From Candidatus Buchananbacteria bacterium (GTDB lineage Bacteria > Patescibacteriota > Patescibacteriia > 2-01-FULL-39-33): 64,000 nt of DNA. The translations under genes and the position numbers were made by a program. Position 1 is the stretch's first letter, and each line of letters begins with the position of its first letter. Shown here one piece after another: positions 30,384-46,776 of this stretch. A model generated the notes under the pieces. It searched no databases. It saw nothing but the letters and a program-made list of their open reading frames with translations, and was not told the origin of the DNA. The DNA lies in assembly GCA_041666945.1 (NCBI GenBank), contig JBAYFY010000002.1, forward strand, positions 129,076 to 193,075. Reading direction: 5' to 3'.

Positions 30384-30459
30384 TTGGTATTTAAATTGGC
30401 ATACATCCACTCTTAAAAAATAAAAACAAAACAAAAATCACGTCCACGACTCGGGGACA

Positions 30460-30530
30460 GGGGCTCGAACCCCGATTAACGGCTTCAAAGGCCGCTGTCC
30501 TACCATTAGACGATCCCCGAGTTATAGACG
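30460..30530 (-). tRNA. tRNA-Gln (anticodon TTG)
   Basis: Cloverleaf hand-folded: acceptor TCGGGGA/TCCCCGA (U1-A72), D-arm GTCT/GGAC, anticodon loop CTTTGAA, T-arm CGGGG-TTCGAGC-CCCTG, discriminator G; CCA not encoded. Confidence 0.8.
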
Positions 30531-32649: not shown

Positions 32650-32692
32650 AACAAAAAACCTCGATCACTCGAGGTTTTTATAATACTAAGAA

Positions 32693-33166
32693 TTAGATAT
32701 TTTTCTCTAAAATCAGTTCATGATCAAAAAAGCCGTTTTTTCTGTAAAAATTAATACCCTTGCTATTGCCGGCTGAAGCGACGACGCGCAATCTATTAAC
32801 TCCTTTTGATTTGCTCCAATCAGCAAAGGCCTGGCAAAGCATTGATCCCGCGTTCTGTCCGCGATATTCTTCTAATACTAACATATTTTCCAGTTCGGCT
32901 AACTTCATGGGGATTCGATAACTGCTGGCCTGGCTTAAACCGCCCGCCAAATAGCCAATAATTTTGTCATTGGCCCAAGCGACAAAAATGCAATTATCGT
33001 CTTCGAGAATTCGTTTACTAAAATAATTTTTGTTTTCCTCTGCGTTAGTCCATTGAAGGTCGATAGTATCATCAAATAATTGACTTTCTCTTTCAAATAA
33101 TAGCCGGTTTAAATCTCGAATGGCCGGCAGATCATTAATTGTAGCTGTTTTAATTATGATTTCCAT
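32693..33166 (-). CDS. GNAT family N-acetyltransferase
   Basis: Acetyl-CoA binding motif RGQNAGSML... Confidence 0.7.
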   Translation of the reverse strand: MEIIIKTATINDLPAIRDLNRLLFERESQLFDDTIDLQWTNAEENKNYFSKRILEDDNCIFVAWANDKIIGYLAGGLSQASSYRIPMKLAELENMLVLEEYRGQNAGSMLCQAFADWSKSKGVNRLRVVASAGNSKGINFYRKNGFFDHELILEKNI

Positions 33167-33170
33167 ATTT

Positions 33171-33848
33171 TTAAATTACTTCTTGCGGTTTAACTTCTTT
33201 GTACTCCCCTTCTTTTAATCCTCCCAATTTCAGTTTGCCGATTCTGACCCGTTTTAAATCCTTCACTTCGTAACCCAGTTGTTCGGCCATGCGGCGAATT
33301 TGGCGATTGACGCCTTCTTTCAGAATCAAAGTTACTTGGTCGCCTCGCTGTTTTACGATTTTTACCGGTTGGAGTTTTTTGCCGTCCAAAATCAATCCCC
33401 GCTCTATTTTTTGCGCGTCGGTTTTATCCAGGGGCCGATCCAGCTCAACCTCGTATTCTTTTTCGTGGCCGAACTTGGCGTGGGTCAGACGGTAAGCGAA
33501 ATCGCCGTCATTGGTTAATATTAACAGCCCGCGCGAGTCCTTGTCCAGCCGTCCGACCGGATAGATGCGTTGCTTGATTTTGACTAAATCCAATACCGAC
33601 TTGCCTTGTGAGTCGGTGGAAGAAGTGATATAGCCCGCGGGCTTGTTAAGCGCTAGATAGATTTTCTTCGTTTCTGCCGCCAGTTTCTTGCCGGCTAATT
33701 CCACCGTGTCGTTATTTTCATTAATTACCAAGCCCAAGTCATTGACGTTTTGGCCGTTAACTTTCACTTTGCCGGCTTTAATCAGCTCATCGGCTTTGCG
33801 CCTTGAGCACACCCCGGCTTGAGCGATGTATTTGTTTAATCGGATCAT
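33171..33848 (-). CDS. Pseudouridine synthase, RsuA/RluB family (S4 domain plus catalytic domain)
   Basis: MIRLNKYIAQAGVCSRRKADELI S4 domain; GRLDKDSRGLL catalytic Asp motif. Confidence 0.8.
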   Translation of the reverse strand: MIRLNKYIAQAGVCSRRKADELIKAGKVKVNGQNVNDLGLVINENNDTVELAGKKLAAETKKIYLALNKPAGYITSSTDSQGKSVLDLVKIKQRIYPVGRLDKDSRGLLILTNDGDFAYRLTHAKFGHEKEYEVELDRPLDKTDAQKIERGLILDGKKLQPVKIVKQRGDQVTLILKEGVNRQIRRMAEQLGYEVKDLKRVRIGKLKLGGLKEGEYKEVKPQEVI

Positions 33849-34006: not shown

Positions 34007-34771
34007 TTAAATGCCATGTTTTTTTTGCACAATCTTTTTCCACTTCTCATAATTTTCTTTAGCCGGCAACTTCAGCCAAGACAACTTGTAAGCAAATGAT
34101 GGCAGCCATTGGCTCATGGTTCCACCGGTCGCGACCTTAAACAATACCTCGGGAATGAACACTCCCCGACCGCCGCGCTCGGTTATGGTCAAAAACAAAT
34201 CCCAATCCTGGAATTTTTTCAGTGTTTCATCAAAGCCGGGGAATTTTTCCCGCCTGATTAAAGAGCAAGTATGAATATATGGTTGTTGTTTTAATTTTTC
34301 CGCATCAAACGGCCAGAGACGGAATTTTTTCCAGCCCCACAAAAACCGGCTGTAAGCGAAGTCAGCTTCGGGCGCGGCTTTAAGCGCCAAATGCATCTTT
34401 TCTAAGGCCTGGGGTTTAAGAATGATATCAGCGTCAACAAAAATCACTTTCGATCCGGAAGATTGGCTGAAACCGTAATTGCGCGCCGCCGGCGCTCCTT
34501 TGTTCTCTTGATTCAAAATAGTCAGGCGATGGCGGCAAGTGGTTAAGGCTAAAAGCAAATCATCGGTGGACCCGTCATTGACTACAATAATCTCGCAATC
34601 TTTAAAGGTTTGGTTAAAGATGCTGTCTAAGCAGGCAGCAATGGTCTTACTGGCATTATATGCCGGGATGATGATGGATATTTGAGGCATGCATTTGTAT
34701 TTATTCAATAAATGCGAGCGTAACAAAATCTTGTGCGACTTTATGCGAGAACGACCAGAAAAGTTTTGCAA
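34007..34771 (-). CDS. Family 2 glycosyltransferase
   Basis: ISIIIPAYNASKTIAACLDSIFNQTF...VVNDGSTDD; DAD motif. Confidence 0.75.
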   Translation of the reverse strand: MQNFSGRSRIKSHKILLRSHLLNKYKCMPQISIIIPAYNASKTIAACLDSIFNQTFKDCEIIVVNDGSTDDLLLALTTCRHRLTILNQENKGAPAARNYGFSQSSGSKVIFVDADIILKPQALEKMHLALKAAPEADFAYSRFLWGWKKFRLWPFDAEKLKQQPYIHTCSLIRREKFPGFDETLKKFQDWDLFLTITERGGRGVFIPEVLFKVATGGTMSQWLPSFAYKLSWLKLPAKENYEKWKKIVQKKHGI

Positions 34772-34932: not shown

Positions 34933-36048
34933 TTAACTGTCTAATATAATTTTGATCTTTTCTATTTGCTTCTTCCAATCAAACTCCTGCGCTCGTTTTT
35001 GGCCGGCTTCGGCCAGGCGCCGCCACAATTCGCGATCCGTGGCGATTGTTATTATCGCTAACCTTATTTCCCGTTCAATTTGCGGATCAACCAGAATGCC
35101 GGTAACGCCGCCCACAACCGCCTCCCGGGAACCGCCGAACTTGGAGGCGATAACCGCGGTTTTGGTTGCCGCGGCTTCCAGATAACTGATGCCGAAACCC
35201 TCCGGCTTCAACGAGGCCGTGATGTAGATGTGAGCCAGTTGCAAATAAAACGCTTTGGCTTCCGGAATATTAGCCGCTTCTCCGGCAAAAATCACATTAT
35301 ACTTCAGTCCTAATTGCTGGGCTAAGTTTTTTAATTTTTCTTCTTGCGATCCGCCACCGACAATAATGTATTTAAGTTGCGGCGCAACCGACAGGAGTTC
35401 CGGCATCATTTTAATGATCGTCTCCAGATTTTTTTCCGGTTCCAGCCGGCACATTGACAGCATGATGACGTCATTGTCGTCCAAACCCAATAATTTCTTC
35501 TTGCCCGCGAAATCCTTGTCCGGTTTGTTGAGCGCTTCATAATCAATGCCGGGATATACCACTTCAATTTTGGTTTTATCGCCGGTTATTCTGGTGATTT
35601 CTTCCGCCAAATAGTCGCTGTTGGCGATAAACTTGCGGCACAAGGAATTACTATAAACCCGCTTGAGCATCCGTTTCTGCCACCAGCTGTTTTTGACTTG
35701 CGTAATGTCAGTGCCATGGACAAAAACATAAAAAGGCAGTTTGAATTTATCGGCTAAGGAATTATAAGGATGAAAATGGCCGAAAATCAGCCGTTCCGTT
35801 TTTTCCGTTTGGATAATGTCGCCGATGTCTTTGGCCAGCGGCCGCCAGCGTGGCGGGATCCGGCCAGAAAAAAAATCAGCGCGATAAATGCGGTAGGGTT
35901 GCGTTTGGTCAAACGCCTTCTCCCCCGCTTGGGTTTGCGCCAAAACGCAAATCTCCTCCGGCTTCAATCGCGAGAGCAGGTTAAGATAATAGTTTTGCAC
36001 TCCGCCGGTTTCCGGCGGGAAGAAATTGGTAATCAGCAATTTTTTCAT
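34933..36048 (-). CDS. Family 4 (GT-B) glycosyltransferase
   Basis: C-terminal EGFGISYLEAAATKTAVIAS motif typical of GT4. Confidence 0.75.
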   Translation of the reverse strand: MKKLLITNFFPPETGGVQNYYLNLLSRLKPEEICVLAQTQAGEKAFDQTQPYRIYRADFFSGRIPPRWRPLAKDIGDIIQTEKTERLIFGHFHPYNSLADKFKLPFYVFVHGTDITQVKNSWWQKRMLKRVYSNSLCRKFIANSDYLAEEITRITGDKTKIEVVYPGIDYEALNKPDKDFAGKKKLLGLDDNDVIMLSMCRLEPEKNLETIIKMMPELLSVAPQLKYIIVGGGSQEEKLKNLAQQLGLKYNVIFAGEAANIPEAKAFYLQLAHIYITASLKPEGFGISYLEAAATKTAVIASKFGGSREAVVGGVTGILVDPQIEREIRLAIITIATDRELWRRLAEAGQKRAQEFDWKKQIEKIKIILDS

Positions 36049-36061
36049 AAGTTATCTAATA

Positions 36062-36180
36062 GCTGCCATTCCGAGTTCCCTCTTCTGCCATTCCGAGCGT
36101 AGTTGAGGAATCCCTTAGATGTTTAATGAAAGCGATTTCTCCGCTTCGCCGACGATTACGACGGCCCCGGTCGAAATGAC
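36062..36180 (-). mobile_element. MITE-like palindromic element, copy 2 (inverted relative to copy 1)
   Basis: GCCATTCCGAGCGTAG...GGTCGAAATGAC; reverse-complement homolog of 33883-33969; duplicated terminus GCCATTCCGAG x2. Confidence 0.5.
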
Positions 36181-36194
36181 AATAAGAAGCATTA

Positions 36195-39100
36195 TTATAA
36201 TTTGTTACCTAATATATTCTTAGCTTTTAAATAAGCCAGCACGGCAAAGGCGGCTTTTTTCTCCACCTCGCTCAAATCGTTCTGCGCTAATTCTACTATT
36301 TTTTCCATCAAATTGACAGCCGCGTTCTTGTCTTCAGTTGCGCCAGCCACCACAAATCGGCCCAAAAAATCCTGCATCATCTGCATCAGCTTGTTGCCTG
36401 CCGGTGTTTCGTCTTTTTCCGGTTGTTCGGCCAGTTTCCGCCGTTCCTTATCGACTGCGCCGGCCAGCTCCAATATGGCCTCCCCTTGCTGGTAGGGGTT
36501 AGCCAAATCCAGTTGGTGTATGGGCGTATACCAGTAATAATTAAGCAAACTCTCAATAATCGCCAAGTGCGATTCTTTGACTTGGTATTTTAGGATGCTG
36601 TTTAACACCCGTTCCAGTTCGCCATTGGACATCTTGCGGACGGTTTCCGCGTCTAACCGGTTCAGGCCGTCAATAATCTCCTGGACTCTTTTGATCGCTT
36701 CCGCCGATTGCCCTTTCTCCTTGCTGATTGACTCTTGTTCTTGTTCAACAAGCGACGGCAGAGAAACTCCGATTACGCCGTCAGGCGTGCCGTCAACACT
36801 GATCACTCTGCTCTTGCCTGCCTCATCGGGCCAAACCACAAACGCCGTAGCGTGAGCGTGTTTCATTCTGACGATTTTGTCTTGTCCGCCAAAACCCACG
36901 ATTACGCCCGAGGCCAAACCGGCGCGCCTTAGCAGGGTGGCGGTCAGCTGGGCGAAGTCAGCGCAAACGCCGGCAAACTTTTTGCCTCTTAGCTCTGGGG
37001 CTAATTCCGGTTTTTGTTGTCGCAGTTCCTCCAGCCGTTGCTCCATGACATACAGTTGCTCTTCCAGCGGTTTGCCTCTTTTTAGTTCATTGACTTCCTG
37101 ATTGTTTTGATCATAGTAACCCAAGTCGCGCACCAGGCGTTCAATTGCCATCACTTGCTCTTTTGGATTCTTGCCCTCAATGACAGACAAAAGTTCTAAT
37201 TCCAAGTCCTCCGGTATGTTGGCCAAAATCTTGGTTAAATCTTGTCCGCCGGTTGTTTCCAATTGTTTTTTAAATAGCTTATATTCGCGCTGATTCAAAT
37301 CTCTCAATGGTTCCGGCGCCTGGGCTACGGCTATGGAATAGACAATCTTCTCTACCCCGCTCGGCTTATTCACCACTTTGGCTTCTCCCAGATTATTCAC
37401 TTCTATCTCCAAATCATGCTCCCGGCCTTGAGCGTCAAAACCTTTGACGCGTTCCGGAATTATTCTGGCTTCCAAGGTTTTGGGCAAAGACACCGCAGAC
37501 AGGTTTTTGACATTGGGCAGGGTGGCTGTGGTTTCTATGGCCGGTTCAATCAGCGGGGCGCTAACAGAAAAATCAACCGTTTCCCAGCGTTTGGACGAAG
37601 GGTTGTACCGGCCGTAAATATTAGTGGCGATGATACTCCCTAAGGCCTCGCGAAACTCCATTACTTCCCGATCATCATTCATTAGTTCTATGCCCCCGCC
37701 GACCAGTTCTTGGTTGGAATTGGGGTTAAGGCAGTCCTCGGGGCCGGCTGATCCGGCCGGCCGGCCGCCTCTTTCCAGGCCGGAATAGCCGGAAAACCCG
37801 TGCCAAGCCGTCTCCTTTTCGGCTTGCAGTATTTCCGGAAAAATCTTAATCGACAACTGTTGGGCAAAAACCTCGGGCAAACGATCGCGCTTGGCCGGCA
37901 GAGTATCTAAGAATAATTTCGGTTCTTCGCTGATGATTCTGTTTATGATGCCGGTAACAAAGCGGTTGCCACTAAGCAATTTTTTCCAGCCCGGCTTGGC
38001 GCTGCCTTTCTCCTTAGTGTTTTTTTCTGCGAAGTGCTTGTATATTTTATCACTGGTTGGGTGATGAAGCAGATTAAGCGTATCCAGCCGTTCTTGTTCC
38101 TCCTTAGTTAATTCTTTTGCCTTATTTGTTTTCTCTTTTAGTTTTAATTGCCAAACGAAAGTAATATAATCGCCGGCCAAGCCCCCGGCAATATGACCTT
38201 TATCAACCCCGTCCTTGATAAATTGCTCTCTCATCTCCCAGGCGCGATCCGAGTCCAGGCCGGATAAACCCCAGGTGATATAACCTTTACCAACCCCGTC
38301 TTTGATAAATTGCTCTCTCATCTCCCAGGCGCGATCCGAGTCCAGGCCGGCCAAGCCCTCGGCGATATAACCTTTATCAATTCCGTCTTTGATAAATTGC
38401 TCTCTCATCTCCCAGGCGCGATCCGAGTCCAGGCCGGATAGGCCCGCAGCTATATAATTTTTATGAACCCCATCCTTGATAAATTGCTCTCTGATAAATT
38501 GCTCTCTCATCTCCCAGGCGCGATCCGAGTTCAGGCCGGATAGGCCCGCAGCTATAAAATCTTTATCAACCCCGTCCTTGATAAATTGCTCTCTCATCTC
38601 CCAGGCGCGATCCGAGTCCAGGCCGGATAGGCCCCAGGTGATATAATCTTTATCAGCCCCGTCTTTGATAAATTGCTCTCTCATCTCCCAGGCGCGATCC
38701 GAGTCCAGGCCGGATAGGCCCATAGCGATATGACCTTTATCAACCCCGTCCTTGATAAATTGCTCTCTCATTTCCCAGGCGCGATCCGAGTCCAGGCCGG
38801 ATAAACCCCAGGCGATATAATTTTTATCAATTCCGTCTTTGATAAATTGCTCTCTCATTTCCCAGGCGCGATCCGAGTCCAGGCCGGATAGGCCCATAGC
38901 GATATAATCTTCATCAGCCCCGTCTTTAATTAGTTTATCTATGTAATCCAGCGCCTTGTCTTCAAACTTAGCAAAATCAAATTCTTTCTGCTCCGTCTTT
39001 TTTTCCTGCGCCAACTGGAATTTTTTAAGCTGTTCTATGAATTGTTCATCACGGATTTCCAAGATAAAACTCCCTGTTGAATTTTTTTCGTATTTGCCAA

Positions 39101-40994
39101 TAATGTTAATTTTTCCATTCTCATAATATAACTCATTAACTTTTTTAAATGGAACAAACCCTTCAGTGGTTATGCGACCGGTATCAATATTATACAATCC
39201 TTCAAATCCGCCGGATCTAACCATACTGGACATATCTGTGAAACCTAACTTCATTCCAGCCAATTCATAAACGTCGCGTCCGAGTGATTTTTCAGTTAGC
39301 AACTTGGCCTCAATTCTTCCTTCCGGCGGTAGATTCTCAATTTTTTCTATATATTTGGCTCTAAGTTTAATATCATCCGCATCTATGCCGTGCCTTTGGC
39401 CCGGAACGCCAATATCTATGTTTAAATTTGCTGACCCGCCGTCTTTGAATACGCCCTTAAGATAAATCGTGCCATCTTCATAATATAAACTGTCTATACG
39501 CGAGATAAAAGGAAAGGTGTCGGTGATAAATGCCCAGGATTTACAATCAACAAATGCTTGTCCATCATTTACAACGCCTAATTTGACTTTTATGCCGCCA
39601 AGTTGGTAGATATCTTCGTCTTTTATTCTTTCTAAAAATTTACCCTCAATCCTTTTATGCGGTTTTTTTTCTTTTTTCTCCCCCGCTTCCAGTCGGCGGA
39701 TTTTATCCACATCCAAAGTCACCTCTTGTATTTTGTTCGGCCCGCCCCACTCTGGCCCTTTTTCAATAATTTTTAATTTTCTACCAATGCGTTCTACGGC
39801 GACTAAATCATTTTGCACCATTAAAGCTTCTCCCGCATGGCAATTTTTTCCTCCAATTTCAGTACTAACAACAGCTGTTCCGTTATTTCGAGAACGCATA
39901 TCGAATTGCCTGCCGTTAATTGTAAAAGAACCACCTCTAACATTTACTGCCTGCTCCGGTGTCATATCATCCCAGCCGTCTGACGGTTTTTCTTTCTCCT
40001 TACCTTTCTCCTTATCCTCCACCACTTCATACTTATCCCCCGTCAGCTGGACTTTCTGTTCGCGGTTTTTGAGCGATTCGTTCAGTTTTTTGACCAGACC
40101 ATTTTCGGCTTGCAGGGTTTTTATGCCCACAGTGGAAGAAATATACCTGGCGTGCTTAAGCCGGGGCTTTATATCCTCAAATGGTATGCCCAGGCGGTCG
40201 CATTCCTTCTCAATATCGTCGGTCACGATAAAAATCTCATCAGCCGACAGGCGGAATTCGCCTTCAATCCGATGCTGTTTTTGATAACGCCGGATGATTT
40301 CCCTGACTGATTCGGAATAATACGTCGGAAACAGCAAAAGCTGCTGTTGCCATAAGGCCTCGTCAGCCAGTTGTTCCGAGCTTTTTATCTCTCGCGTCTC
40401 GCCGGCCTTCAAACCCTTAACCTTTTCGCCGACCGGATATTCGCTGTGGACTTTTGCCGGCATTATTTGCCGCGTCTTTAGTAGTGGGGCGTAATAACTA
40501 TCAATTTTATCTAATAATTTATTGCCGCGGCGCAAGTCCCTCTCCTGCTCTAATTTTTCTTCAAATTCAGACCAATCCTTAGATTCTCTGGCCGGCAGAA
40601 CATGATTATCCCAAAAATCTATCATTTTCTCTATAATCGCCCAGTGTTTTTTGTTGTTTTTAAGGGCTTGCCAAACTTTCTTGCCAGAATCGCCCGGCAA
40701 CGTTTGAGGTATGGATAACACGTCTTTTAAAATTTGATTATGTTTTATCACAAATCCGGGCGACATGACCACCTCGGCTAATTCTTCCTCATTCAAGTTA
40801 AGCCGGCTATTCAACTGCAGGCCGTCTTCAACCGAATGCTCAAAAACACGCTTAGCCGCTTCCAGAGTTTGCCGTCTGTTTTTCTGTTCAGTGATTTGCG
40901 CAAAAAGCTCCTCGCGTTTTGTGCGCGCGGCTGATTCCGGTTGTTCTATTTTTATTTTTTCAGCGTTTATTGTCGGCCGTCTTAGCGTCGGCAT
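36195..40994 (-). CDS. Giant (1599 aa) protein: transglutaminase-like Cys-His-Asp core plus nine tandem 29-aa helical repeats
   Basis: GVCADFA...HAHATAFVVW...ISVDGTPDG TGc triad order; repeats GLSGLDSDRAWEMREQFIKDGxDKxYIAx; no signal peptide obvious. Confidence 0.7.
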   Translation of the reverse strand: MPTLRRPTINAEKIKIEQPESAARTKREELFAQITEQKNRRQTLEAAKRVFEHSVEDGLQLNSRLNLNEEELAEVVMSPGFVIKHNQILKDVLSIPQTLPGDSGKKVWQALKNNKKHWAIIEKMIDFWDNHVLPARESKDWSEFEEKLEQERDLRRGNKLLDKIDSYYAPLLKTRQIMPAKVHSEYPVGEKVKGLKAGETREIKSSEQLADEALWQQQLLLFPTYYSESVREIIRRYQKQHRIEGEFRLSADEIFIVTDDIEKECDRLGIPFEDIKPRLKHARYISSTVGIKTLQAENGLVKKLNESLKNREQKVQLTGDKYEVVEDKEKGKEKEKPSDGWDDMTPEQAVNVRGGSFTINGRQFDMRSRNNGTAVVSTEIGGKNCHAGEALMVQNDLVAVERIGRKLKIIEKGPEWGGPNKIQEVTLDVDKIRRLEAGEKKEKKPHKRIEGKFLERIKDEDIYQLGGIKVKLGVVNDGQAFVDCKSWAFITDTFPFISRIDSLYYEDGTIYLKGVFKDGGSANLNIDIGVPGQRHGIDADDIKLRAKYIEKIENLPPEGRIEAKLLTEKSLGRDVYELAGMKLGFTDMSSMVRSGGFEGLYNIDTGRITTEGFVPFKKVNELYYENGKINIIGKYEKNSTGSFILEIRDEQFIEQLKKFQLAQEKKTEQKEFDFAKFEDKALDYIDKLIKDGADEDYIAMGLSGLDSDRAWEMREQFIKDGIDKNYIAWGLSGLDSDRAWEMREQFIKDGVDKGHIAMGLSGLDSDRAWEMREQFIKDGADKDYITWGLSGLDSDRAWEMREQFIKDGVDKDFIAAGLSGLNSDRAWEMREQFIREQFIKDGVHKNYIAAGLSGLDSDRAWEMREQFIKDGIDKGYIAEGLAGLDSDRAWEMREQFIKDGVGKGYITWGLSGLDSDRAWEMREQFIKDGVDKGHIAGGLAGDYITFVWQLKLKEKTNKAKELTKEEQERLDTLNLLHHPTSDKIYKHFAEKNTKEKGSAKPGWKKLLSGNRFVTGIINRIISEEPKLFLDTLPAKRDRLPEVFAQQLSIKIFPEILQAEKETAWHGFSGYSGLERGGRPAGSAGPEDCLNPNSNQELVGGGIELMNDDREVMEFREALGSIIATNIYGRYNPSSKRWETVDFSVSAPLIEPAIETTATLPNVKNLSAVSLPKTLEARIIPERVKGFDAQGREHDLEIEVNNLGEAKVVNKPSGVEKIVYSIAVAQAPEPLRDLNQREYKLFKKQLETTGGQDLTKILANIPEDLELELLSVIEGKNPKEQVMAIERLVRDLGYYDQNNQEVNELKRGKPLEEQLYVMEQRLEELRQQKPELAPELRGKKFAGVCADFAQLTATLLRRAGLASGVIVGFGGQDKIVRMKHAHATAFVVWPDEAGKSRVISVDGTPDGVIGVSLPSLVEQEQESISKEKGQSAEAIKRVQEIIDGLNRLDAETVRKMSNGELERVLNSILKYQVKESHLAIIESLLNYYWYTPIHQLDLANPYQQGEAILELAGAVDKERRKLAEQPEKDETPAGNKLMQMMQDFLGRFVVAGATEDKNAAVNLMEKIVELAQNDLSEVEKKAAFAVLAYLKAKNILGNKL
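38180..38935 (-). repeat. In-frame 87-bp tandem coding repeats (x9) inside the giant gene
   Basis: ggcgcgatccgagtccaggccgga recurs every 87 bp. Confidence 0.85.
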
Positions 40995-40996
40995 AA

Positions 40997-42505
40997 TTAT
41001 TTTTTAAAATCCCTTATTAATTCCTTAAGCGAGCCCAAACGGAACAAGCCCAAGGCGTAAGCCGCGGCAAAATAAACCGCGCCGCCGGCAATGATCGCCA
41101 CAATGAAATGCGCTCGCTCCTTAAGCAGCCAAACCGCCAGATACATGATCAAGCAGGCCAAAATCATCTTGACCGCCGACCAGATTAAGAATTTCCAGTC
41201 ATATTTTATCACTTGACTGACTACGGCAATGCCCAGAATAAATAACAGCAGGTAGCTGGCGAAATTGGCCAGAGCCGAACCGTTGTAGCCCCAAAAAGGA
41301 ATCAAGGCCAAATTGGCGACAAAAGAAAAGCCGGCGACAACGCCCAGATGAATCGTGTTTCTGGTTTGCCGATTGCAGGCGTTAAGCAGGGCGCCAACAG
41401 GAAAGCATAAAAAGACAAAAACCAGGGAGAGAATCAGAATATTCAGGGGTAAAACCGAGGCCGCGTACTGGCTGCCGAAAACCGGACCGATTACTTTGTC
41501 GGCGATGGAAATTACGCCGGCTGATATGGGCAAGGAAAAAAACATCAGCCAATACATGGACTTGACGAAAAGTTTTGACAGTTTCTCCTTGTCGTGCGCG
41601 AAATAGTTGGCAAAGGCCGGATAGATGGAAGCGGAAAAAGCCAAAGCGATAAACTGCAGAGCAAAGGCCACTTTAAAGGCCACGGAATAAATTCCCACCG
41701 CGTAATCGCCGGCTAATTTTGACAGCAAAACAACGTCAATGGCGGAAAAAATCCGATTGAAGATTCCGGCCAAAGCGAAGGGAATGGAAATAAGTATCAG
41801 TTGTCTGATGGTCAGCCAGTCAAAAGAAAAAACCGTTTTAATTTTATATTTATGGCGCAGGTTGAAAGTTGACCAACAGAGATTGAGCAAACTGCCCAGA
41901 ACGTAAACCGCCATGACCCAGGTAAGCGGCACGCCCATAAGCAATAACGCTCCGCCGACAACCAAAACCGTCAATTGGTTGAAAATAACGCCGAAACTCT
42001 CGTAAATTAGATTTTGATGCCCGCGCAAAGCGCCGTAAACGCTTAAAGACAGCGAATCTAACAGCATGACTAAGCCGGAAATATACACTAACGATTTGGT
42101 CAGCGGCGGGTAACCCATGATATTTACGGAAACGACGATAATCAGATAAATAACCGCTGAAGCCGCCAGTTTATAGCCGAGAATATTGGATAAATATTTG
42201 GCGGAATGCTCGCGATTTTTGGCCACTTCGCGGATCAGTATTTGGGTTAAACCCAAATCCAAAAACATGGCGAAAATGGAAGTGAAACTTAAAGCAAAAG
42301 TGAATTTTCCTTGTTCGGCCACGCCGACGGAGCGCGCCAAAATAATGAAATATAAAAATGACAATACTTTTTGAGCGGCTAATGAAGCGCTGTAAAAAAA
42401 AGTGTTTTTAGCTAAGTTTCGGTTGGACATAATGCTCACATTATACCATAAAATAAGAGAAAAACAAAGCCCGCTAAAGATAGCAGTAGCGGGCAAAAAG
42501 TGCAA
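40997..42505 (-). CDS. Polysaccharide biosynthesis/export flippase (Wzx-like, MOP superfamily)
   Basis: 502 aa, ~14 TM, N-terminal ...SASLAAQKVLSFLYFIILARSVG... Confidence 0.7.
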   Translation of the reverse strand: MHFLPATAIFSGLCFSLILWYNVSIMSNRNLAKNTFFYSASLAAQKVLSFLYFIILARSVGVAEQGKFTFALSFTSIFAMFLDLGLTQILIREVAKNREHSAKYLSNILGYKLAASAVIYLIIVVSVNIMGYPPLTKSLVYISGLVMLLDSLSLSVYGALRGHQNLIYESFGVIFNQLTVLVVGGALLLMGVPLTWVMAVYVLGSLLNLCWSTFNLRHKYKIKTVFSFDWLTIRQLILISIPFALAGIFNRIFSAIDVVLLSKLAGDYAVGIYSVAFKVAFALQFIALAFSASIYPAFANYFAHDKEKLSKLFVKSMYWLMFFSLPISAGVISIADKVIGPVFGSQYAASVLPLNILILSLVFVFLCFPVGALLNACNRQTRNTIHLGVVAGFSFVANLALIPFWGYNGSALANFASYLLLFILGIAVVSQVIKYDWKFLIWSAVKMILACLIMYLAVWLLKERAHFIVAIIAGGAVYFAAAYALGLFRLGSLKELIRDFKK

Positions 42506-42513
42506 AAATACGG

Positions 42514-42861
42514 TTAATGCTTTTCCGGCGCGTCAATCATGGTTTTGTATAATTGCCAATCAATCTCGGATAGCAGAACTGAATTAGAGGAGTTGCCGCA
42601 GATTAAGGCAAAAATCGGAAAGAGCCGCGGTAATTCCTCGGGGCAATGTTTGAGGCAATTGGAATAAAGTTCCGATACGATTTTTTGCAGGCAACCGACG
42701 CAAACCCTGTTATCTTTATCTACTAACTGGGCGCGCTTAGCCATTAAGGCGGATAACAGTTCCTGCAGGATTATTTGCCGTTCATGACACTTGGCGGATT
42801 TGTCAGCCGCCCTGGCCAGTAGTTCTAAAATCTTCCGTTCATGCATAATGGCACCTCCCAA
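42514..42861 (-). CDS. Hypothetical protein
   Basis: 115 aa ORF between rpsI and wzx, same strand. Confidence 0.3.
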   Translation of the reverse strand: MGGAIMHERKILELLARAADKSAKCHERQIILQELLSALMAKRAQLVDKDNRVCVGCLQKIVSELYSNCLKHCPEELPRLFPIFALICGNSSNSVLLSEIDWQLYKTMIDAPEKH

Positions 42862-42984
42862 GGTTAAAGATCCGACTTAACCTTAGCAGATTACGGGCAC
42901 GATGGCAATCGTGATTTATTCTCAATGAAAAAATCCGCATAACACTTAGTGCTATGCGGATTTTTATGATAAGAATTAAATAGA

Positions 42985-43446
42985 TTAGCGTTTAGACCAC
43001 TGCGGAGCGCGACGGGCGCGTTTCAGGCCGGGTTTCTTTCTTTCTTTGACTCTGGGGTCGCGAGTCATTAATCCCTCGGCTTTCATGGCCGGGCGCAGTT
43101 CCGGATTCAGTTGTTCCAGTGCTCGAGCGATGCCGTGGCGAACGGCAGCGGCCTGGCCGTTTTTGCCGCCGCCGACCACATGGACGGAAACGGTGGTGTT
43201 TTTGTCATGGCCGGTCAAAACTAACGGCTTCAAGACGACGTTTTGCAGATCTTTGGTGGGAAAATAAACTTTATAATCAAGATCATTGACTACAATTTCT
43301 CCTTTGCCCTTTAGATATAAGCGAACATTGGCGGACGCGGTTTTCCGGCCTCCTCGGCCATAGAAAAATTTGCCTTCCGGCTTAACAATCTCGACTTCTT
43401 TGTTTTCTTTCTTTTTGGTAGCCATAATATATTCTTGCCAAAACAA
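42985..43446 (-). CDS. rpsI: 30S ribosomal protein S9 (true start probably MATKKKENK)
   Basis: C-terminal ...RKKPGLKRARRAPQWSKR uS9 tail. Confidence 0.9.
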   Translation of the reverse strand: MFWQEYIMATKKKENKEVEIVKPEGKFFYGRGGRKTASANVRLYLKGKGEIVVNDLDYKVYFPTKDLQNVVLKPLVLTGHDKNTTVSVHVVGGGKNGQAAAVRHGIARALEQLNPELRPAMKAEGLMTRDPRVKERKKPGLKRARRAPQWSKR

Positions 43447-43806
43447 TTAGTTAGTGGTTTTTAACCGTTTGATCATCTGATCGCGTAATTTGTTTTTGGG
43501 TAACATGCCCCAGACGGCGCGTCTTAGGACTTCGCCGGCATTGGCTTTCATCACCACGCTGGCCTTTTTGATTCTTAATCCGCCCGGGTGGGTGGTATGC
43601 CATTTGTATTCTTTTTGCTCCGATTTTTTACCGGTCAGTTTGAGTTTGGCGCAGTTAGCAACCTCAACAAAATCTCCGGCATCAATATTCGGCATAAAAG
43701 TGGCTTTGTTCTTGCCGCGTAAAATAGTGGCGATGCGCGTGGCTAAGCGTCCGACCGGTTGGTCAGTGGCGTCAAGCTGATGAGTTTTTCTTTCTATTTC
43801 TTTCAT
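43447..43806 (-). CDS. rplM: 50S ribosomal protein L13
   Basis: HQLDATDQPVGRLATRIATILRGKNKATF... Confidence 0.9.
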   Translation of the reverse strand: MKEIERKTHQLDATDQPVGRLATRIATILRGKNKATFMPNIDAGDFVEVANCAKLKLTGKKSEQKEYKWHTTHPGGLRIKKASVVMKANAGEVLRRAVWGMLPKNKLRDQMIKRLKTTN

Positions 43807-43819
43807 AAAATAAATTTAA

Positions 43820-44170
43820 TTAAACGAATTCAATAATCGCCGCTTCCGCCCCATCGTTGACGCGCGGAGCCACTTTGACGATTCTAGTGTAACCGCCTTT
43901 GCGATCCTTGTATTTTGGCCCCAAAACCTCAAATAATTTTTTGACAGCGCCCTGGGTGTACAGCACTTTTAAGGCCTCGCGACGGTTATGCAGGGTGTCA
44001 TTTTTGGCTAAGGTGATCAGTTTTTCCACTTTAGGACGGGTTACCTGGGCCTTGGCCTTGGTGGTTTTAATTTTTTCGTATACCACAAGAGAGGTGACCA
44101 AACTGCGCAATAACGCTTCCCTTGGCGCCTTTTCACGACCCAGTACTTTTCCTTTTCTGTTATGTCTCAT
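43820..44170 (-). CDS. rplQ: 50S ribosomal protein L17
   Basis: MRHNRKGKVLGREKAPREALLRSLVTSLVVYEKIKTT. Confidence 0.9.
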   Translation of the reverse strand: MRHNRKGKVLGREKAPREALLRSLVTSLVVYEKIKTTKAKAQVTRPKVEKLITLAKNDTLHNRREALKVLYTQGAVKKLFEVLGPKYKDRKGGYTRIVKVAPRVNDGAEAAIIEFV

Positions 44171-44264
44171 AATATGTTAGTCATAAGGTCGAAAGTCGAA
44201 AGTCGAAAGTCAGTAATAATATGATTATTTTTGACTTTATGGACTTTTGGCTTTGGACTCAATT

Positions 44265-45131
44265 TTATTCTTCAATTTTTTTGGGTCGGCCGCGTTTCTT
44301 GGGTTTGGGTTCTTCCGCCGCCGCTTCCGCCGGTTCTTCAGCGGCCTCAACGTTTTCTTCCAGAATTTCTTCGGCTTTTTCTTCAGCGGCTATTTCCGGC
44401 AGGATAACCGGCGCTTCAATGTTAATTTCCTCCATTTCCCTGGCCCCGCCTTCCATAATCCAACTGAATTGATTGGTCAAGATTTCCGCGGCTTTTTTGA
44501 CGGCGTCTTCCGGAGAAATAGTGCCATCGGTTTCAATCGTCAGAACGAGTTTGTCATAATCGGTGCGTTGGCCGACACGAGTCGCTTCCACCGACAAGCC
44601 GACATTAATCACCGGAGTAAAAATAGAATCAGTCAAAATAGTGCCGATTTCGCCCTTGTTTATGCTTTGATCTTCCACCGGAACGTAACCGATGCCTTTG
44701 GCCACAGTCAATTCCATTTCTATTTCAGCGTTTTCCGCGCTTAAAGAAGTGATAACGGCGTCCTTGTTGACCACTTCGGCGTCCAAAGACGGCTGAATGT
44801 CGGCGCCGGTAACTTTCTTTTTGCCCTCGGCTTTGAGTTGCAAGGTAACCGGCTCATCGGAGTAAACTTTAAATCTCAAAGTTTTCAAATTCAGGATTAT
44901 TTCCAAAACGTCTTCCGGTACGTTTTCCATAGCCGAAAATTCGTGCTTGACGCCTTTGATTTTGACTGCGGTAATGGCGCCGCCGGGCAAGGACGACAAG
45001 ATAGTGCGTCTTAGGGCGTTACCCAAAGTCAGTCCGTAGCCGGGAAAGCAGGGCTCAATGACGATTTGGGCCGATTTGCCCGGAACGGATTCTTCAACGA
45101 TGAATTTTTTAGGCAAAGGGATGTATTTCAT
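44265..45131 (-). CDS. rpoA: DNA-directed RNA polymerase alpha subunit lacking canonical C-terminal domain; acidic/AT-hook tail
   Basis: NTD MKYIPLPKKF...GYGLTLGNALRRTILSSLPGGA; C-terminus EEKAEEILEENVEAAEEPAEAAAEEPKPKKRGRPKKIEE. Confidence 0.85.
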   Translation of the reverse strand: MKYIPLPKKFIVEESVPGKSAQIVIEPCFPGYGLTLGNALRRTILSSLPGGAITAVKIKGVKHEFSAMENVPEDVLEIILNLKTLRFKVYSDEPVTLQLKAEGKKKVTGADIQPSLDAEVVNKDAVITSLSAENAEIEMELTVAKGIGYVPVEDQSINKGEIGTILTDSIFTPVINVGLSVEATRVGQRTDYDKLVLTIETDGTISPEDAVKKAAEILTNQFSWIMEGGAREMEEINIEAPVILPEIAAEEKAEEILEENVEAAEEPAEAAAEEPKPKKRGRPKKIEE

Positions 45132-45205
45132 AATATTTCCTCCTTAGGCGCGCCGTAGCTTAAGCGTGGGCGGTCTTAACTTAAATTAAATTATTTTAGT
45201 TTATG

Positions 45206-45844
45206 TTATTTGCTGTAGTATTCAACGATAGTGCGCCAATCAACATTGACGGCGATATCCCCTAATTTGGGTTGGCTGGTGATCTTGCCCTCAACTTTTT
45301 CCGAATCAATGGTCAGCCAAGCGGGAATATTAGTCAGTTTGCTTAATTTTTGTTTGATATCTTTGTAACCGGAACTTTTGAGGGTCTTATCGGATAAAGT
45401 GACGACATCGCCAACTTTGGTTTGATAGGAAGGTATGTTGACTTTTTTGCCGTTGACTCTGACATTGCCATGGCCGACCAATTGGCGCGCGGCGCGGCGG
45501 GAAGCGGCAAAACCCAGGCGATAAATCGTGTTATCCAAGCGCCCCTCCAAGAATCTGAACAGCCATTCGCCGGTGTTGCCGACTTTGCTCAAGGATTTTT
45601 TGAAATAAATCAAAAATTGCGCTTCATAAATGCCGTACATGCGCTTGGCTTTTTGTTTTTCCGTCAATTGCTTGCCAAAGTTGGTTTTTTTGCCTACGCG
45701 TTGCAACGGGCCGTGCATGCCCGGAGGAAAGTTGCGTTTGACCATGGGGCATTTGGCGGAGTTGCATTTTTCGCCTTTCAAAAATAATTTTTCACCGGCG
45801 CGGCGGCAAGATTTGCATTGGAGATTTCTGGTAAAATTAGACAT
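45206..45844 (-). CDS. rpsD: 30S ribosomal protein S4
   Basis: CKSCRRAGEKLFLKGEKCNSAKC zinc ribbon; S4 domain. Confidence 0.9.
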   Translation of the reverse strand: MSNFTRNLQCKSCRRAGEKLFLKGEKCNSAKCPMVKRNFPPGMHGPLQRVGKKTNFGKQLTEKQKAKRMYGIYEAQFLIYFKKSLSKVGNTGEWLFRFLEGRLDNTIYRLGFAASRRAARQLVGHGNVRVNGKKVNIPSYQTKVGDVVTLSDKTLKSSGYKDIKQKLSKLTNIPAWLTIDSEKVEGKITSQPKLGDIAVNVDWRTIVEYYSK

Positions 45845-45872
45845 AGGGAATTAAGAAATAGAAAAATAAAAA

Positions 45873-46349
45873 TTAAACGCGGCGCGGTCTGGGCGCGCGG
45901 CAGCCATTATGAGGAATCGGAGTGATGTCTTTAATGCTGGAAACGATGAAGCCATTGGCGTTGATGGCGCGAACCGCTGATTCGCGGCCGCCGCCGATGC
46001 CGCGGACAAATACCGAGACCTCTTTCAGGCCGTATTTTTTAACCTTTTCCGCGGCCGTTCTGACAATAATCGTCGCAGCATAAGGGGTGGCTTTTTTGGG
46101 GCCCTTAAAACCGCATTGGCCGGCGGAACACCAAGACAATACATTGCCGTTCTGATCGGTAAAGGTGACAATAGTATTGTTATAGGTGGATTTAACATAA
46201 GCCCGGCCGCTGGCCACCTGACGGGCAGCGACGACTTTTTTGACTTTTTTTTTCGACTTGTCGGCCGGTTTGGCGGCTTCGGCGTCAGCGTTAGCTTCCG
46301 CCGGAACGGTGGCAACGGTCGGCTCGTTGATCAACAATTCTTCAGACAT
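45873..46349 (-). CDS. rpsK: 30S ribosomal protein S11 (with Lys-rich N-terminal extension)
   Basis: ...GRAYVKSTYNNTIVTFTDQNGNVLSWCSAGQ... Confidence 0.9.
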   Translation of the reverse strand: MSEELLINEPTVATVPAEANADAEAAKPADKSKKKVKKVVAARQVASGRAYVKSTYNNTIVTFTDQNGNVLSWCSAGQCGFKGPKKATPYAATIIVRTAAEKVKKYGLKEVSVFVRGIGGGRESAVRAINANGFIVSSIKDITPIPHNGCRAPRPRRV

Positions 46350-46380
46350 AATTATATTGGTATTTGACTATTTAGATTGG

Positions 46381-46776
46381 TTAGGTTTTTTGGCTGGTAT
46401 CTTTTCTGCCCGAACTCATGGTTTTTCTGACATTGCCGCGCACCGTGCGATTATTGGTTTTGGTGCGTTGGCCGCGAACCGGCAGACCCTTCATGTGGCG
46501 GATGCCGCGATAGGCCTTGATTTCTTTCAGGCGCTTGATGTTGCCCATGACCTCACGGCGCAGATCGCCCTCAATGCTAAAGCCGCCTTTTTCCACAGCC
46601 GTTCTTAAAGCGATTACTTGCTCCTCGGTCAAATCATTAACCCTGGTATCGGGATTGATTTTGATGCTGGCTAAAATTTTGTTGGCGCGCGGCTTACCGA
46701 CGCCAAAAATATAAGTTAAGGCGATTTCCACTCTTTTATTGTTGGGGATAACGACCCCCGCGATTCTAACTGCCAT
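46381..46776 (-). CDS. rpsM: 30S ribosomal protein S13
   Basis: [27 protein letters not shown]. Confidence 0.9.

What the first reader, a model, noticed from the sequence alone, without database searches (positions are those of the whole stretch)
36195..40994. 1599-aa protein combining a transglutaminase-like Cys-His-Asp core with nine 29-aa tandem repeats, co-operonic with a Wzx flippase and glycosyltransferases
The C-terminal third contains GVCADFAQLTATLLRRAGLASGVIVGF...HAHATAFVVWPDEAGKSRVISVDGTPDG. This is the canonical order and spacing of the transglutaminase-like (TGc) cysteine-protease triad. The middle contains nine near-identical helical repeats (GLSGLDSDRAWEMREQFIKDGxDKxYIAx; 87-bp DNA period, one with an REQFI insertion). 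The gene abuts a MOP-family flippase (3-nt gap) upstream. It is followed by GT4 and GT2 genes, all directly downstream of the ribosomal alpha operon. TGc-repeat giants embedded in a cell-surface glycan locus are not a textbook arrangement. Near-perfect repeats suggest recent expansion or phase-variable length.
Basis: partly seen in the sequence, partly recalled or inferred. Interest (0 to 1): 0.55.

Follow-up and report, generated by a model that had tools for sequence, protein, structure and literature searches.

The report
TgpA-like transglutaminase-fold enzyme with repeat cassette
This 1,599-residue protein of a Candidatus Buchananbacteria (candidate phyla radiation, CPR) bacterium belongs to a large uncharacterised family of apparently soluble enzymes with a TgpA-like transglutaminase-fold catalytic end, and its eight 29-residue repeats form a fixed-size module also found in other proteins; it does not look like a recently expanded or length-variable array.

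Summary
An intact 1,599-aa ORF lies at 36195-40994 (-). It has a Cys1344/His1381/Asp1401 transglutaminase-like (TGc) triad and eight complete 29-aa repeats (87-bp period, one with a 15-bp REQFI duplication). It sits between a Wzx flippase and GT4/GT2 genes, downstream of the ribosomal alpha and rplM-rpsI genes.

The glycan-gene neighbourhood is conserved only in Buchananbacteria, not across the family.

The repeats form a capped cassette that most often has exactly 8 units (19 of 31 complete cassettes). The same cassette occurs in standalone proteins and fused to AAA_5 or thymidylate-kinase domains. The units have diverged at synonymous sites (pS 0.18-0.30), so recent expansion, phase-variable length and assembly artefact are all unlikely.

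Most likely function: a cytoplasmic protein-modifying cysteine enzyme that uses the cassette as a binding adaptor. The substrate is unknown.

The parts
36195..40994 (-). Complete gene for the 1599-aa TGc-family protein
   Evidence: ORF list and translation. Identical protein in NCBI/JGI named 'MAG: transglutaminase-like domain-containing protein [Candidatus Buchananbacteria bacterium]'.
39960..40994 (-). N-terminal conserved orphan domain (aa 1-345), mostly alpha-helical; family motif R-V-F-E-H-S-x-E-D-G; D57, G58, H85 and Y168 nearly invariant
38979..39959 (-). Central beta-rich variable region (aa 346-672), containing a duplicated ~85-aa domain (about aa 448-530 and 561-647)
   Evidence: Internal alignment score z = 13 against shuffles. 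Only a weak MORN_2 hit. In other family members this region is replaced by long arrays of other beta-rich repeats.
38145..38978 (-). Capped 'LAGLDS' repeat cassette (aa 673-950): N-cap DFAKFEDKALDYIDKLIKDG..., eight units, C-cap GLAGDYITFVWQL
   Evidence: The same caps occur in P0008, P0020, P0155 and P0200.
38184..38894 (-). Eight complete 29-aa units (GLSGLDSDRAWEMREQFIKDGxDKxYIAx), 87-bp period
   Evidence: Tandem Repeats Finder. Unit table and pairwise identity of 83-94%. pN/pS is 0.06 for codons 1-19 and 0.66 for codons 20-29.
38477..38507 (-). Perfect 15-bp tandem duplication (REQFI-REQFI) inside unit 5
   Evidence: Tandem Repeats Finder: period 15, 2.1 copies, 100% match.
37668..38132 (-). 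Helical linker (aa 955-1109), conserved in sequence but modelled with low confidence
   Evidence: Alignment A1 consensus. pLDDT 35-60 over model residues 1-130.
37323..37667 (-). Beta-sandwich domain preceding the catalytic core (aa 1110-1224)
   Evidence: Strands at model residues 156-270. Superposes together with the core on the TgpA periplasmic domain.
36783..37292 (-). TGc (papain-like) catalytic core (aa 1235-1404), with Cys1344 (36963-36965), His1381 (36852-36854) and Asp1401 (36792-36794)
36213..36752 (-). C-terminal helical bundle (aa 1415-1594), conserved across the family
   Evidence: Model helices 461-640, pLDDT about 75-92. The catalytic Cys lies 250-270 residues from the C-terminus in nearly all family members.
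40997..42505 (-). Upstream MOP/Wzx-type flippase, 2-nt gap to the TGc gene
   Evidence: Pfam Polysacc_synt 128 bits. NCBIfam flippase families all far below their cut-offs.
34933..36048 (-). Downstream GT4 glycosyltransferase (146-nt gap)
   Evidence: Pfam Glycos_transf_1 121 bits and Glyco_transf_4.
34007..34771 (-). Downstream GT2 glycosyltransferase
   Evidence: Pfam Glycos_transf_2 104 bits.
32654..33848 (-). Pseudouridine synthase (33171-33848), GNAT acetyltransferase (32693-33166) and a terminator-like hairpin (32654-32679) that probably ends the transcription unit
   Evidence: Pfam. Terminator scan: 11-bp stem plus T-run.
42514..46776 (-). Upstream genes: orf115, rpsI, rplM, rplQ, rpoA, rpsD, rpsK, rpsM
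   Evidence: Pfam. The same order occurs in L001.

Best explanation
The gene encodes a soluble, most probably cytoplasmic, multidomain enzyme of the transglutaminase-like (papain-fold) cysteine-enzyme superfamily. It belongs to a large, uncharacterised family found almost only in Patescibacteria.

Shown:
- The last ~500 residues form a beta-sandwich, a TGc core and a helical bundle. The sandwich plus core superpose on the periplasmic catalytic domain of Pseudomonas aeruginosa TgpA.
- The Cys1344-His1381-Asp1401 triad is conserved across the family members aligned.
- The eight 29-aa repeats are one copy of a discrete, capped cassette. Its typical size is 8 units, and it is reused in other proteins.

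Inferred:
- The catalytic Cys forms an acyl-enzyme intermediate with a protein or peptide substrate. The reaction could be Gln transamidation, deamidation, or (iso)peptide hydrolysis; sequence cannot tell these apart.
- The cassette is a helical-hairpin solenoid that acts as a binding adaptor. Its first half (positions 1-19) is a conserved scaffold. Positions 22-29 form a variable surface that recruits the substrate or a partner.
- The orphan N-domain and the beta-rich middle add further binding or regulatory functions.

The adjacency to Wzx, GT4 and GT2 is synteny specific to Buchananbacteria. It reflects placement in a long housekeeping transcription unit behind the ribosomal genes, and it is not a defining functional link.
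For: - TGc identity: Pfam Transglut_core 25.3 bits on the whole protein; 32 bits, plus DUF553 25 bits, on the isolated segment. All exceed the curated cut-offs.
- Triad: C, H and D are invariant in 16 homologs down to 29% identity and at least 90% conserved in 35.
- Family size and architecture: 684 clusters at E <= 1e-3. Typical length is 1300-1600 aa, with the catalytic Cys about 250-270 residues from the C-terminus. The N-domain is conserved across the family.
- Taxonomy: 40 reference-genome loci. Most titles that name a taxon name Patescibacteria lineages; about a third carry generic or probably wrong labels; two are labelled Bdellovibrio/Bdellovibrionota. None in viral contigs.
- Solubility: no 19-residue window with Kyte-Doolittle mean above 1.5 in this protein, and none above 1.9 in about 150 relatives.
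- Cassette as a module: identical caps and roughly 8 units in standalone ~340-390-aa proteins, in an AAA_5 fusion and, in a more divergent uncapped form, after a thymidylate-kinase domain. 19 of 31 complete cassettes have 8 units. Codons 1-19 have pN/pS 0.06, against 0.66 for codons 20-29. The variable positions coincide with the family's high-entropy positions.
- Context: no neighbour is conserved across the family.
Against: - No activity, substrate or localisation data exist for any family member.
- Cytoplasmic location rests only on the absence of hydrophobic segments, judged by a crude hydropathy scan. No dedicated signal-peptide predictor was run, and non-classical export cannot be excluded.
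- Within Buchananbacteria the coupling to glycan genes is tight: a 2-nt gap here, and a 4-bp overlap with GT4 in L001. A distant module-only homolog also precedes a GT2. A glycan-related role in this clade is therefore not excluded.
- Active-site geometry in the model was not inspected at residue level.
Confidence: 0.6

Rival explanations
1. Glycan or cell-envelope enzyme. The TGc module acts on the product of the neighbouring Wzx/GT4/GT2 genes or on a glycoprotein or cell-wall peptide. Possible models are WbmE (O-antigen uronamide deamidase), PNGase (deglycosylation) or PeiW/PeiP (wall isopeptidase). On this reading the operon is a functional unit.
For: - Tight spacing: a 2-nt gap to Wzx here, and no terminator-like site before GT4.
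- The order TGc, GT4 or GT2, GT2, RluA is conserved in four Buchananbacteria loci, with a 4-bp overlap between TGc and GT4 in L001.
- A 35%-identical module-only homolog sits next to a 442-aa GT2.
- A Komeilibacteria homolog directly follows an FtsW/RodA gene.
- The closest structure, TgpA, is periplasmic and its authors suggested a cell-wall-linked role. TGc precedents acting on glycans or walls exist (PMC3507681, PMC10318531, PMC3849452).
Against: - No clear signal peptide or membrane segment in this protein or in about 150 relatives.
- One Buchananbacteria locus (L010) lacks the flippase and GT4.
- Across 37 loci only 10 of 112 +/-2 neighbours are GT2, GT4 or Wzx, and these trace to about two independent lineages. 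The remainder are assorted housekeeping genes.
- The locus holds no priming transferase, polymerase or sugar-nucleotide genes within the genes checked.
Confidence: 0.18
2. Host-interaction or conflict-system effector. The variable surface of the cassette targets the TGc enzyme to proteins of a host bacterium or an invader, as part of a wider LAGLDS-cassette system that also includes AAA_5 ATPases and arrays of standalone cassette paralogs.
For: - Variable positions 22-29 sit on an otherwise constrained repeat.
- A tandem array of six standalone 6-8-repeat paralogs shares an N-terminal leader, surrounds an AAA_5 protein and lies near type IV pilus genes.
- An AAA_5-cassette fusion exists.
- Some family members carry two cassettes, or LRR-like and HEAT-like extensions.
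- Patescibacteria are described as colonising host bacterial surfaces and extracting resources from them (abstract of PMC13622651, listed).
Against: - No secretion signal was found.
- The gene is the only family member or LAGLDS-repeat gene in the 64-kb window, and it lies inside a ribosomal/housekeeping transcription unit.
- No match in PADLOC, and no significant domain match in PHROGs. No relatives on viral contigs.
- No AAA_5 or vWA gene features among the frequently matched families of the neighbours of family loci.
- pN/pS of 0.66 in the variable segment fits relaxed constraint as well as diversifying selection.
Confidence: 0.15
3. Recently expanded or length-variable (phase-variable) repeat array, or an assembly artefact of collapsed or expanded repeats.
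For: - The 87-bp in-frame units share identical tracts of up to about 50 nt, long enough for recombination or slippage.
- A perfect 15-bp duplication shows that slippage has occurred.
- Units within one protein resemble each other more than they resemble units in orthologs.
Against: - Units differ by 6-17% in DNA, with pS of 0.18-0.30.
- Each unit has its own variable tail, so copies are distinguishable to an assembler.
- Eight units is the modal number in distant TGc proteins and standalone proteins (19 of 31).
- The cassette has dedicated N- and C-caps.
- No population data could be found: two metagenome scans returned nothing.
Confidence: 0.05

Closest known systems
TgpA (PA2873) of Pseudomonas aeruginosa, periplasmic transglutaminase domain (PDB 6G49/6G4H)
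   Different: TgpA is a 688-aa inner-membrane protein with six predicted TM helices (DUF3488) and a periplasmic catalytic domain (PMC3507681). The window protein has no hydrophobic segments and no DUF3488 match. Sequence identity is only 15%. It also has an orphan N-domain, a beta-rich middle, a repeat cassette and a C-terminal helical bundle that TgpA lacks.
Cytophaga hutchinsonii putative cysteine protease (PDB 3ISR)
   Different: Much smaller and single-module. Function also unproven. No repeat cassette or N-domain.
WbmE of Bordetella bronchiseptica (TGc enzyme encoded in the wbm O-antigen locus)
   Same: A TGc-superfamily gene embedded among glycan-synthesis genes.
   Different: WbmE is periplasmic and deamidates uronamide sugars after assembly. 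The window protein lacks an export signal, and its glycan neighbourhood is not conserved across the family. No direct sequence or structure comparison with WbmE was possible here.
PeiW/PeiP pseudomurein endoisopeptidases (wall-binding repeats plus a TGc-like catalytic domain)
   Same: General logic of a repeat module placed N-terminal to a C-terminal TGc-type cysteine enzyme (PMC3507681, PMC10318531).
   Different: Different Pfam family (PF12386) and different repeats. They are phage-encoded lysins acting outside the cell. No relatives of the window protein were found on viral contigs.
CPR-C4, the vasohibin-like cysteine protease family of the candidate phyla radiation (PMC9108980)
   Same: A papain/TGc-superfamily cysteine enzyme family restricted to the CPR, with an unknown substrate.
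   Different: The paper describes a Cys-His-Leu(carbonyl) triad and a Zn site. The window protein has a canonical Cys-His-Asp triad and a TgpA-like fold. No sequence relationship was detected in any search here.
Capped alpha-solenoid repeat domains (HEAT/ARM/TPR-like)
   Same: Units of about 29-30 residues with a conserved hydrophobic scaffold, variable surface positions and dedicated terminal caps.
   Different: No Pfam repeat family matches; only spurious summed hits to XTBD, PAX and DUF4113 with no individually significant stretch. No PDB sequence match. The structure was not modelled.

Membership tests
Transglutaminase-like (TGc) superfamily, Pfam PF01841/PF04473 | Profile match above the curated gathering score | tested here: met
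   Whole protein: Transglut_core 25.3 bits (cut-off 23). Isolated segment: Transglut_core 32.0 bits and DUF553 25.0 bits (cut-off 20.5). All six relatives scanned hit only these two families, five of them above a curated cut-off.
Transglutaminase-like (TGc) superfamily, Pfam PF01841/PF04473 | Cys-His-Asp triad in canonical order and spacing, conserved among homologs | tested here: met
   C1344, H1381 and D1401 are invariant in 16 sequences and at least 90% conserved in 35 sequences down to 14% identity over the N-domain.
Transglutaminase-like (TGc) superfamily, Pfam PF01841/PF04473 | Papain-like alpha+beta fold | tested here: met
   [not shown]
Transglutaminase-like (TGc) superfamily, Pfam PF01841/PF04473 | Cysteine-dependent acyl-transfer or hydrolase activity | not testable with these tools
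   Needs enzyme assays with wild type and C1344A.
TgpA-type membrane transglutaminases (DUF3488-TGc) | N-terminal multi-pass membrane domain (DUF3488) placing the TGc domain in the periplasm | tested here: not met
   No DUF3488 Pfam hit. No 19-residue window with Kyte-Doolittle mean above 1.5 anywhere in the protein.
TgpA-type membrane transglutaminases (DUF3488-TGc) | Beta-sandwich plus TGc core with TgpA-like geometry | tested here: met
   [not shown]
Glycan-locus TGc enzymes (WbmE-like) | Export signal / periplasmic or extracytoplasmic location | tested here: not met
   The N-terminus MPTLRRPTINAEKIKIEQPES... has no hydrophobic region. None was found in relatives. This is a crude hydropathy test only.
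Glycan-locus TGc enzymes (WbmE-like) | Association with glycan-synthesis genes conserved across the family | tested here: not met
   Conserved only in the Buchananbacteria clade, plus one GT2 adjacency elsewhere. 10 of 112 neighbours in 37 loci.
Size- or phase-variable tandem-repeat proteins | Near-identical DNA repeats (typically >95%) indicating recent amplification | tested here: not met
   Pairwise unit identity is 83-94%. pS is 0.18 (codons 1-19) and 0.30 (codons 20-29).
Size- or phase-variable tandem-repeat proteins | Copy number varies between strains or populations | tested here: inconclusive
   No other assemblies of this gene were found. Across distant proteins the cassette most often has exactly 8 units (19 of 31), which argues for a constrained number.
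Known alpha-solenoid repeat families (HEAT, ARM, TPR, Sel1, PBS-HEAT) | Significant match to a curated repeat profile | tested here: not met
   No such Pfam hit for the cassette of the window protein or for five other cassette proteins. No PDB sequence hit at E <= 10.

The most novel reading that the evidence does not exclude
The 8 x 29-residue capped 'LAGLDS' cassette is an undescribed, modular binding domain with a variable recognition surface. Patescibacteria, and in a more divergent form Myxococcales, attach it to different enzymatic heads: the TgpA-like TGc enzyme, AAA_5 ATPases and thymidylate-kinase-like P-loop domains. They also deploy it as tandem arrays of standalone paralogs near type IV pilus genes. 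On this reading the TGc giant is the catalytic arm of a cassette-mediated targeting system. It would be aimed at host or invader proteins, or would couple a TGc enzyme to an AAA+ remodeller. The latter would loosely echo the pairing of MoxR-type ATPases with TGc proteins that I recall from other bacteria; that pairing was not tested or looked up here.
Probability: 0.15. Interest if true: 0.7.

Novelty: new variant of a known kind. Interest (0 to 1): 0.4.

Why it matters
Patescibacteria have small genomes with many genes of unknown function. A 1,300-1,600-residue protein family conserved across many of their lineages is therefore a substantial investment for these organisms.

This analysis assigns the family a definite catalytic fold, TgpA-like with an intact Cys-His-Asp triad. 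It also delimits two undescribed domains: an orphan helical N-domain with no relative detected in the PDB, and a fixed-size 8-unit repeat cassette.

The cassette is a reusable module, also joined to AAA_5 and P-loop kinase domains. That gives concrete constructs for biochemistry and interaction screens.

The analysis also removes two attractive but unsupported readings: a dedicated glycan-locus enzyme, and a phase-variable surface protein.

TgpA itself is critical for viability in P. aeruginosa and its substrate is still unknown. A soluble relative might be an easier system in which to find what this branch of TGc enzymes acts on.

Tried and rejected
- Sequence searches of the PDB with the family profile, the TGc segment alone and the cassette gave no meaningful hits. 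Residue-level equivalence to the TgpA triad therefore rests on the Pfam profile and fold superposition, not on a pairwise alignment.
- The Pfam 'XTBD', 'PAX' and 'DUF4113' hits, the NCBIfam 'pufB' hit on the repeats and the 'Imm2' hit on a standalone cassette protein are summed sub-threshold matches with no individually significant stretch. I rejected them as artefacts of repetition.
- I searched for a defence-system or phage origin. PADLOC returned nothing. PHROGs returned only two weak summed matches on the repeats (E about 1e-3) to families of unknown function. The viral-contig scan found no relatives.
- Two scans of metagenome contigs, one with the exact repeat core and one with a degenerate back-translation of DSDRAWEMREQFI, found nothing. 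Copy-number variation could not be tested.
- I considered a MoxR/vWA ternary-system link (PMC7159879). No AAA_5 or vWA family appears among the 25 most frequently matched Pfam families of the neighbours of TGc family loci.
- The 146-nt spacer between the TGc gene and GT4 folds only marginally better than shuffles (z = -2.2), and the window-wide Rfam scan found no family there.
- A literature search for S. pyogenes TglA returned nothing.
Full report
**1. Observation**

The window carries an intact 1,599-codon ORF at 36195-40994 on the minus strand. Its GC content (46.4%) is close to that of the window (45.3%). The identical protein is in NCBI and JGI as 'MAG: transglutaminase-like domain-containing protein [Candidatus Buchananbacteria bacterium]'. 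The window therefore comes from a Patescibacteria (CPR) genome, and the TGc annotation already exists.

The quoted motifs are present. GVCADFAQL starts at aa 1342, HAHATAF at aa 1379 and SVDGTPDG at aa 1399.

Tandem Repeats Finder reports an 87-bp period over 38172-38927, interrupted by a perfect 15-bp duplication at 38477-38507. At protein level there are eight complete units at aa 701-937. One unit is 34 aa because REQFI is duplicated. A half-unit N-cap and a 'GLAGDYITFVWQL' C-cap flank them.

Upstream is a Polysacc_synt/Wzx gene ending 2 nt before the ATG. Downstream are GT4 (after 146 nt), GT2, an RluA-type pseudouridine synthase and a GNAT acetyltransferase. Further upstream are rpsM, rpsK, rpsD, rpoA, rplQ, rplM, rpsI and an orphan 115-aa ORF. 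No terminator-like site lies between the TGc gene and GT4. A strong hairpin followed by a T-run sits after the GNAT gene at 32654-32679.

**2. The catalytic module**

The whole protein matches Pfam Transglut_core at 25.3 bits (cut-off 23). The isolated segment scores 32 bits, and DUF553 scores 25 bits (cut-off 20.5).

A search with aa 955-1599 found 16 homologs at 29-64% identity. Cys1344, His1381 and Asp1401 are invariant in the alignment of the window module with 15 homologs. They are at least 90% conserved in a 35-sequence alignment.

An AlphaFold2 model of aa 955-1599 has mean pLDDT 78, and mostly 80-95 from model residue 130 onward. It shows a poorly defined helical linker, a beta-sandwich, an alpha+beta core and a C-terminal helical bundle.

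The TGc assignment is therefore secure, and the module is specifically TgpA-like. The TgpA domain has transglutaminase activity in vitro, and the protein plays a critical role in viability (PMC3507681).

**3. The family**

An exhaustive profile search found 684 clusters (at 50% identity) with E <= 1e-3, of which 298 had E <= 1e-30. Full-length members are typically 1,300-1,600 aa. The catalytic Cys lies about 250-270 residues from the C-terminus.

The middle of the protein is variable across the family. Here it contains a duplicated ~85-aa beta-rich domain (z = 13 against shuffles). Other members carry long arrays of other beta-rich repeats.

The 40 reference-genome loci that name a taxon mostly name Patescibacteria lineages: Buchanan-, Komeili-, Falkow-, Magasanik-, Uhr-, Nomura- and Yanofskybacteria, and Paceibacterota. 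About a third of the titles carry generic or probably wrong labels ('uncultured Gammaproteobacteria', 'uncultured Candidatus Saccharibacteria', 'bacterium'). Two records are labelled Bdellovibrio/Bdellovibrionota. No relatives were found on viral contigs.

No hydrophobic, TM-like window occurs in this protein (Kyte-Doolittle 19-residue mean never exceeds 1.5). None exceeds 1.9 in about 150 relatives. This points to a cytoplasmic location, but it is only a crude test.

**4. The genomic context**

The order alpha operon, rplM-rpsI, Wzx, TGc, GT4, GT2, RluA recurs in a 63%-identical homolog's genome (L001). There the TGc and GT4 genes overlap by 4 bp.

The other Buchananbacteria loci keep TGc, GT(4 or 2), GT2 and RluA in order. 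L010 keeps only TGc, GT2 and RluA: it lacks the flippase and GT4, and places TGc directly after rpsI. A Yanofskybacteria locus also has rpsI followed by TGc with a 6-nt gap.

Outside that clade the neighbours differ. Examples are FtsW/RodA and SecDF plus a PEP-utilising enzyme. GAPDH, TsaD, RNase J and YchF appear in the neighbour census.

An unbiased clustering of +/-3 neighbours and a Pfam census of 112 +/-2 neighbours from 37 loci gave the same picture. The census found 6 GT2, 2 GT4 and 2 Wzx, which trace to about two independent lineages.

The glycan link is thus clade-level synteny and not a family signature. The arrangement is also not unprecedented. The TGc enzyme WbmE is encoded in the Bordetella wbm O-antigen locus (PMC3849452; PMC3507681).

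**5. The repeats**

The unit [GS]-L-A-G-L-D-S-x-x-A-W-x-M-R-E-x-[LF]-[LI]-x-x-G-x-D-K-x-x-I-A-x precedes the TGc module in many family members, always closed by the same 'GLAGxxxTFVWQL' cap. One close homolog (P0003) lacks the cassette entirely.

A search with the cassette alone found 68 proteins:
- Standalone ~340-390-aa cassette proteins.
- An AAA_5 ATPase fused to a cassette with the same N- and C-caps (P0200).
- More divergent, uncapped versions following a thymidylate-kinase domain (P0221; P0222 is from Myxococcales).

The cassette matches no Pfam repeat family and no PDB sequence.

Among 31 complete, capped cassettes, 19 have exactly eight detectable units: 8 of 15 in TGc giants and 9 of 14 in standalone proteins. 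Some proteins carry two whole cassettes in tandem.

In the window gene the units are 83-94% identical in DNA. Codons 1-19 show pS 0.18 and pN 0.011 (ratio 0.06). Codons 20-29 show pS 0.30 and pN 0.20 (ratio 0.66).

The variable residues (positions 22, 23, 25, 26, 28 and 29) coincide with the highest-entropy positions in 189 units from 69 other proteins.

The protein-level near-identity therefore mostly reflects purifying selection on a scaffold half of each unit. The copies are not fresh duplicates. Eight units is the canonical size of a discrete domain.

Units within one protein do share lineage-specific residues, for example DR..E here, DR..K in P0008 and PQ..A in P0012. Some concerted evolution has therefore occurred. 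The 15-bp duplication shows recent slippage.

Recent expansion, phase-variable length and assembly artefact are all poorly supported. Population-level copy number could not be tested.

**6. Mechanism**

*Shown.* The protein has a TgpA-like TGc module with an intact, conserved triad. It has a fixed-size capped repeat cassette that is reused in other architectures. It has a conserved orphan N-domain. It has no detectable export signal.

*Inferred.* The protein is a cytoplasmic cysteine enzyme that forms an acyl-enzyme intermediate on a protein or peptide substrate. The chemistry could be transamidation, deamidation or (iso)peptide hydrolysis; it cannot be assigned from sequence, and the superfamily contains all of these (PMC10318531). 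The cassette, presumed to be a helical-hairpin solenoid, presents a variable surface that binds the substrate or a partner. I put about 0.6 on this overall picture.

*Rivals.*
- A glycan or cell-envelope role in this clade: about 0.18.
- A host-directed or conflict role for a wider cassette system: about 0.15.
- A length-variable array or assembly artefact: about 0.05.

**7. Comparison and novelty**

It works most like TgpA, but it fails the TgpA membership test on the membrane domain and topology. It is a member of the TGc superfamily, with profile, triad and fold all met.

The overall architecture, the N-domain and the cassette match no Pfam family. The few literature searches I ran found no paper that describes this family. 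I class it as a new variant of a known kind.

Interest is moderate. The modular 8-unit cassette and the size of this CPR family are still worth recording.

Noticed in passing
L048:1-12249 (ENA metagenome scaffold; also L049): Six paralogous standalone LAGLDS-cassette proteins (314-355 aa, 6-8 repeats each; five in tandem, one after the AAA_5 gene), with start and stop codons mostly overlapping. All share an N-terminal leader 'CKEL..KL.EL..LK..FD'. Three further ORFs have the same leader but different C-terminal parts. A 948-aa AAA_5 protein sits within the array, and type IV pilus genes (PilM, PilO, two T2SSE ATPases, PilC-like) lie a few kb downstream. It looks like a polymorphic cassette family.
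   Followed up: partly
P0200 (488 aa), P0221 (481 aa), P0222 (281 aa, Myxococcales): The same repeat is fused to an AAA_5 ATPase (with identical N- and C-caps). More divergent copies follow a thymidylate-kinase domain. Several such proteins are annotated simply as 'dTMP kinase'.
   Followed up: partly
[not shown]
   Followed up: partly
window 42514-42861 (-): An orphan 115-aa ORF between rpsI and the flippase has no hit in Pfam, NCBIfam, PADLOC or PHROGs. A Buchananbacteria relative (L009) has an 86-aa ORF in the equivalent position.
   Followed up: partly
window 36049-36194 (-): The 146-nt spacer between the TGc gene and GT4 is absent in relatives, where the two genes overlap or nearly abut. 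It contains a 13-nt direct repeat (CTCGGAATGGCAG, twice) and folds slightly better than shuffles (z = -2.2). The window-wide Rfam scan found no family there.
   Followed up: partly
window 26899-29907 (-): A 1002-aa PcrA/UvrD-type helicase carries a C-terminal Cas4-like nuclease region (TIGR00372, 49 bits, below cut-off). This is an AddA-like fusion.
   Followed up: no
window 59800-60200 (+); 30450-30520 (-); 59634-59704 (-): Bacterial RNase P RNA class A (151 bits) and two tRNA genes.
   Followed up: no
L007 (JGI contig Ga0081425_140351, 15482 bp): The contig's gene order is mirrored (279, 480, 393 and 303-aa genes at both ends in opposite orientation). This suggests an inverted-duplication assembly artefact in the public record.
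   Followed up: no
L008, L012, L016, L022-L025, L032, L034, L037: About ten MAGs whose titles say 'uncultured Gammaproteobacteria bacterium' encode this Patescibacteria-type protein. L008 has Buchananbacteria-like synteny. The taxonomic labels of these records are probably wrong.
   Followed up: no
P0025 (2428 aa), P0100 (3489 aa), L042 (ORF of ~3586 aa): Very large family variants add weakly hydrophobic segments, leucine-rich-repeat-like or HEAT-like extensions (judged by eye; no Pfam scan was run on them), and two cassettes. Their taxonomic origin is unknown.
   Followed up: no
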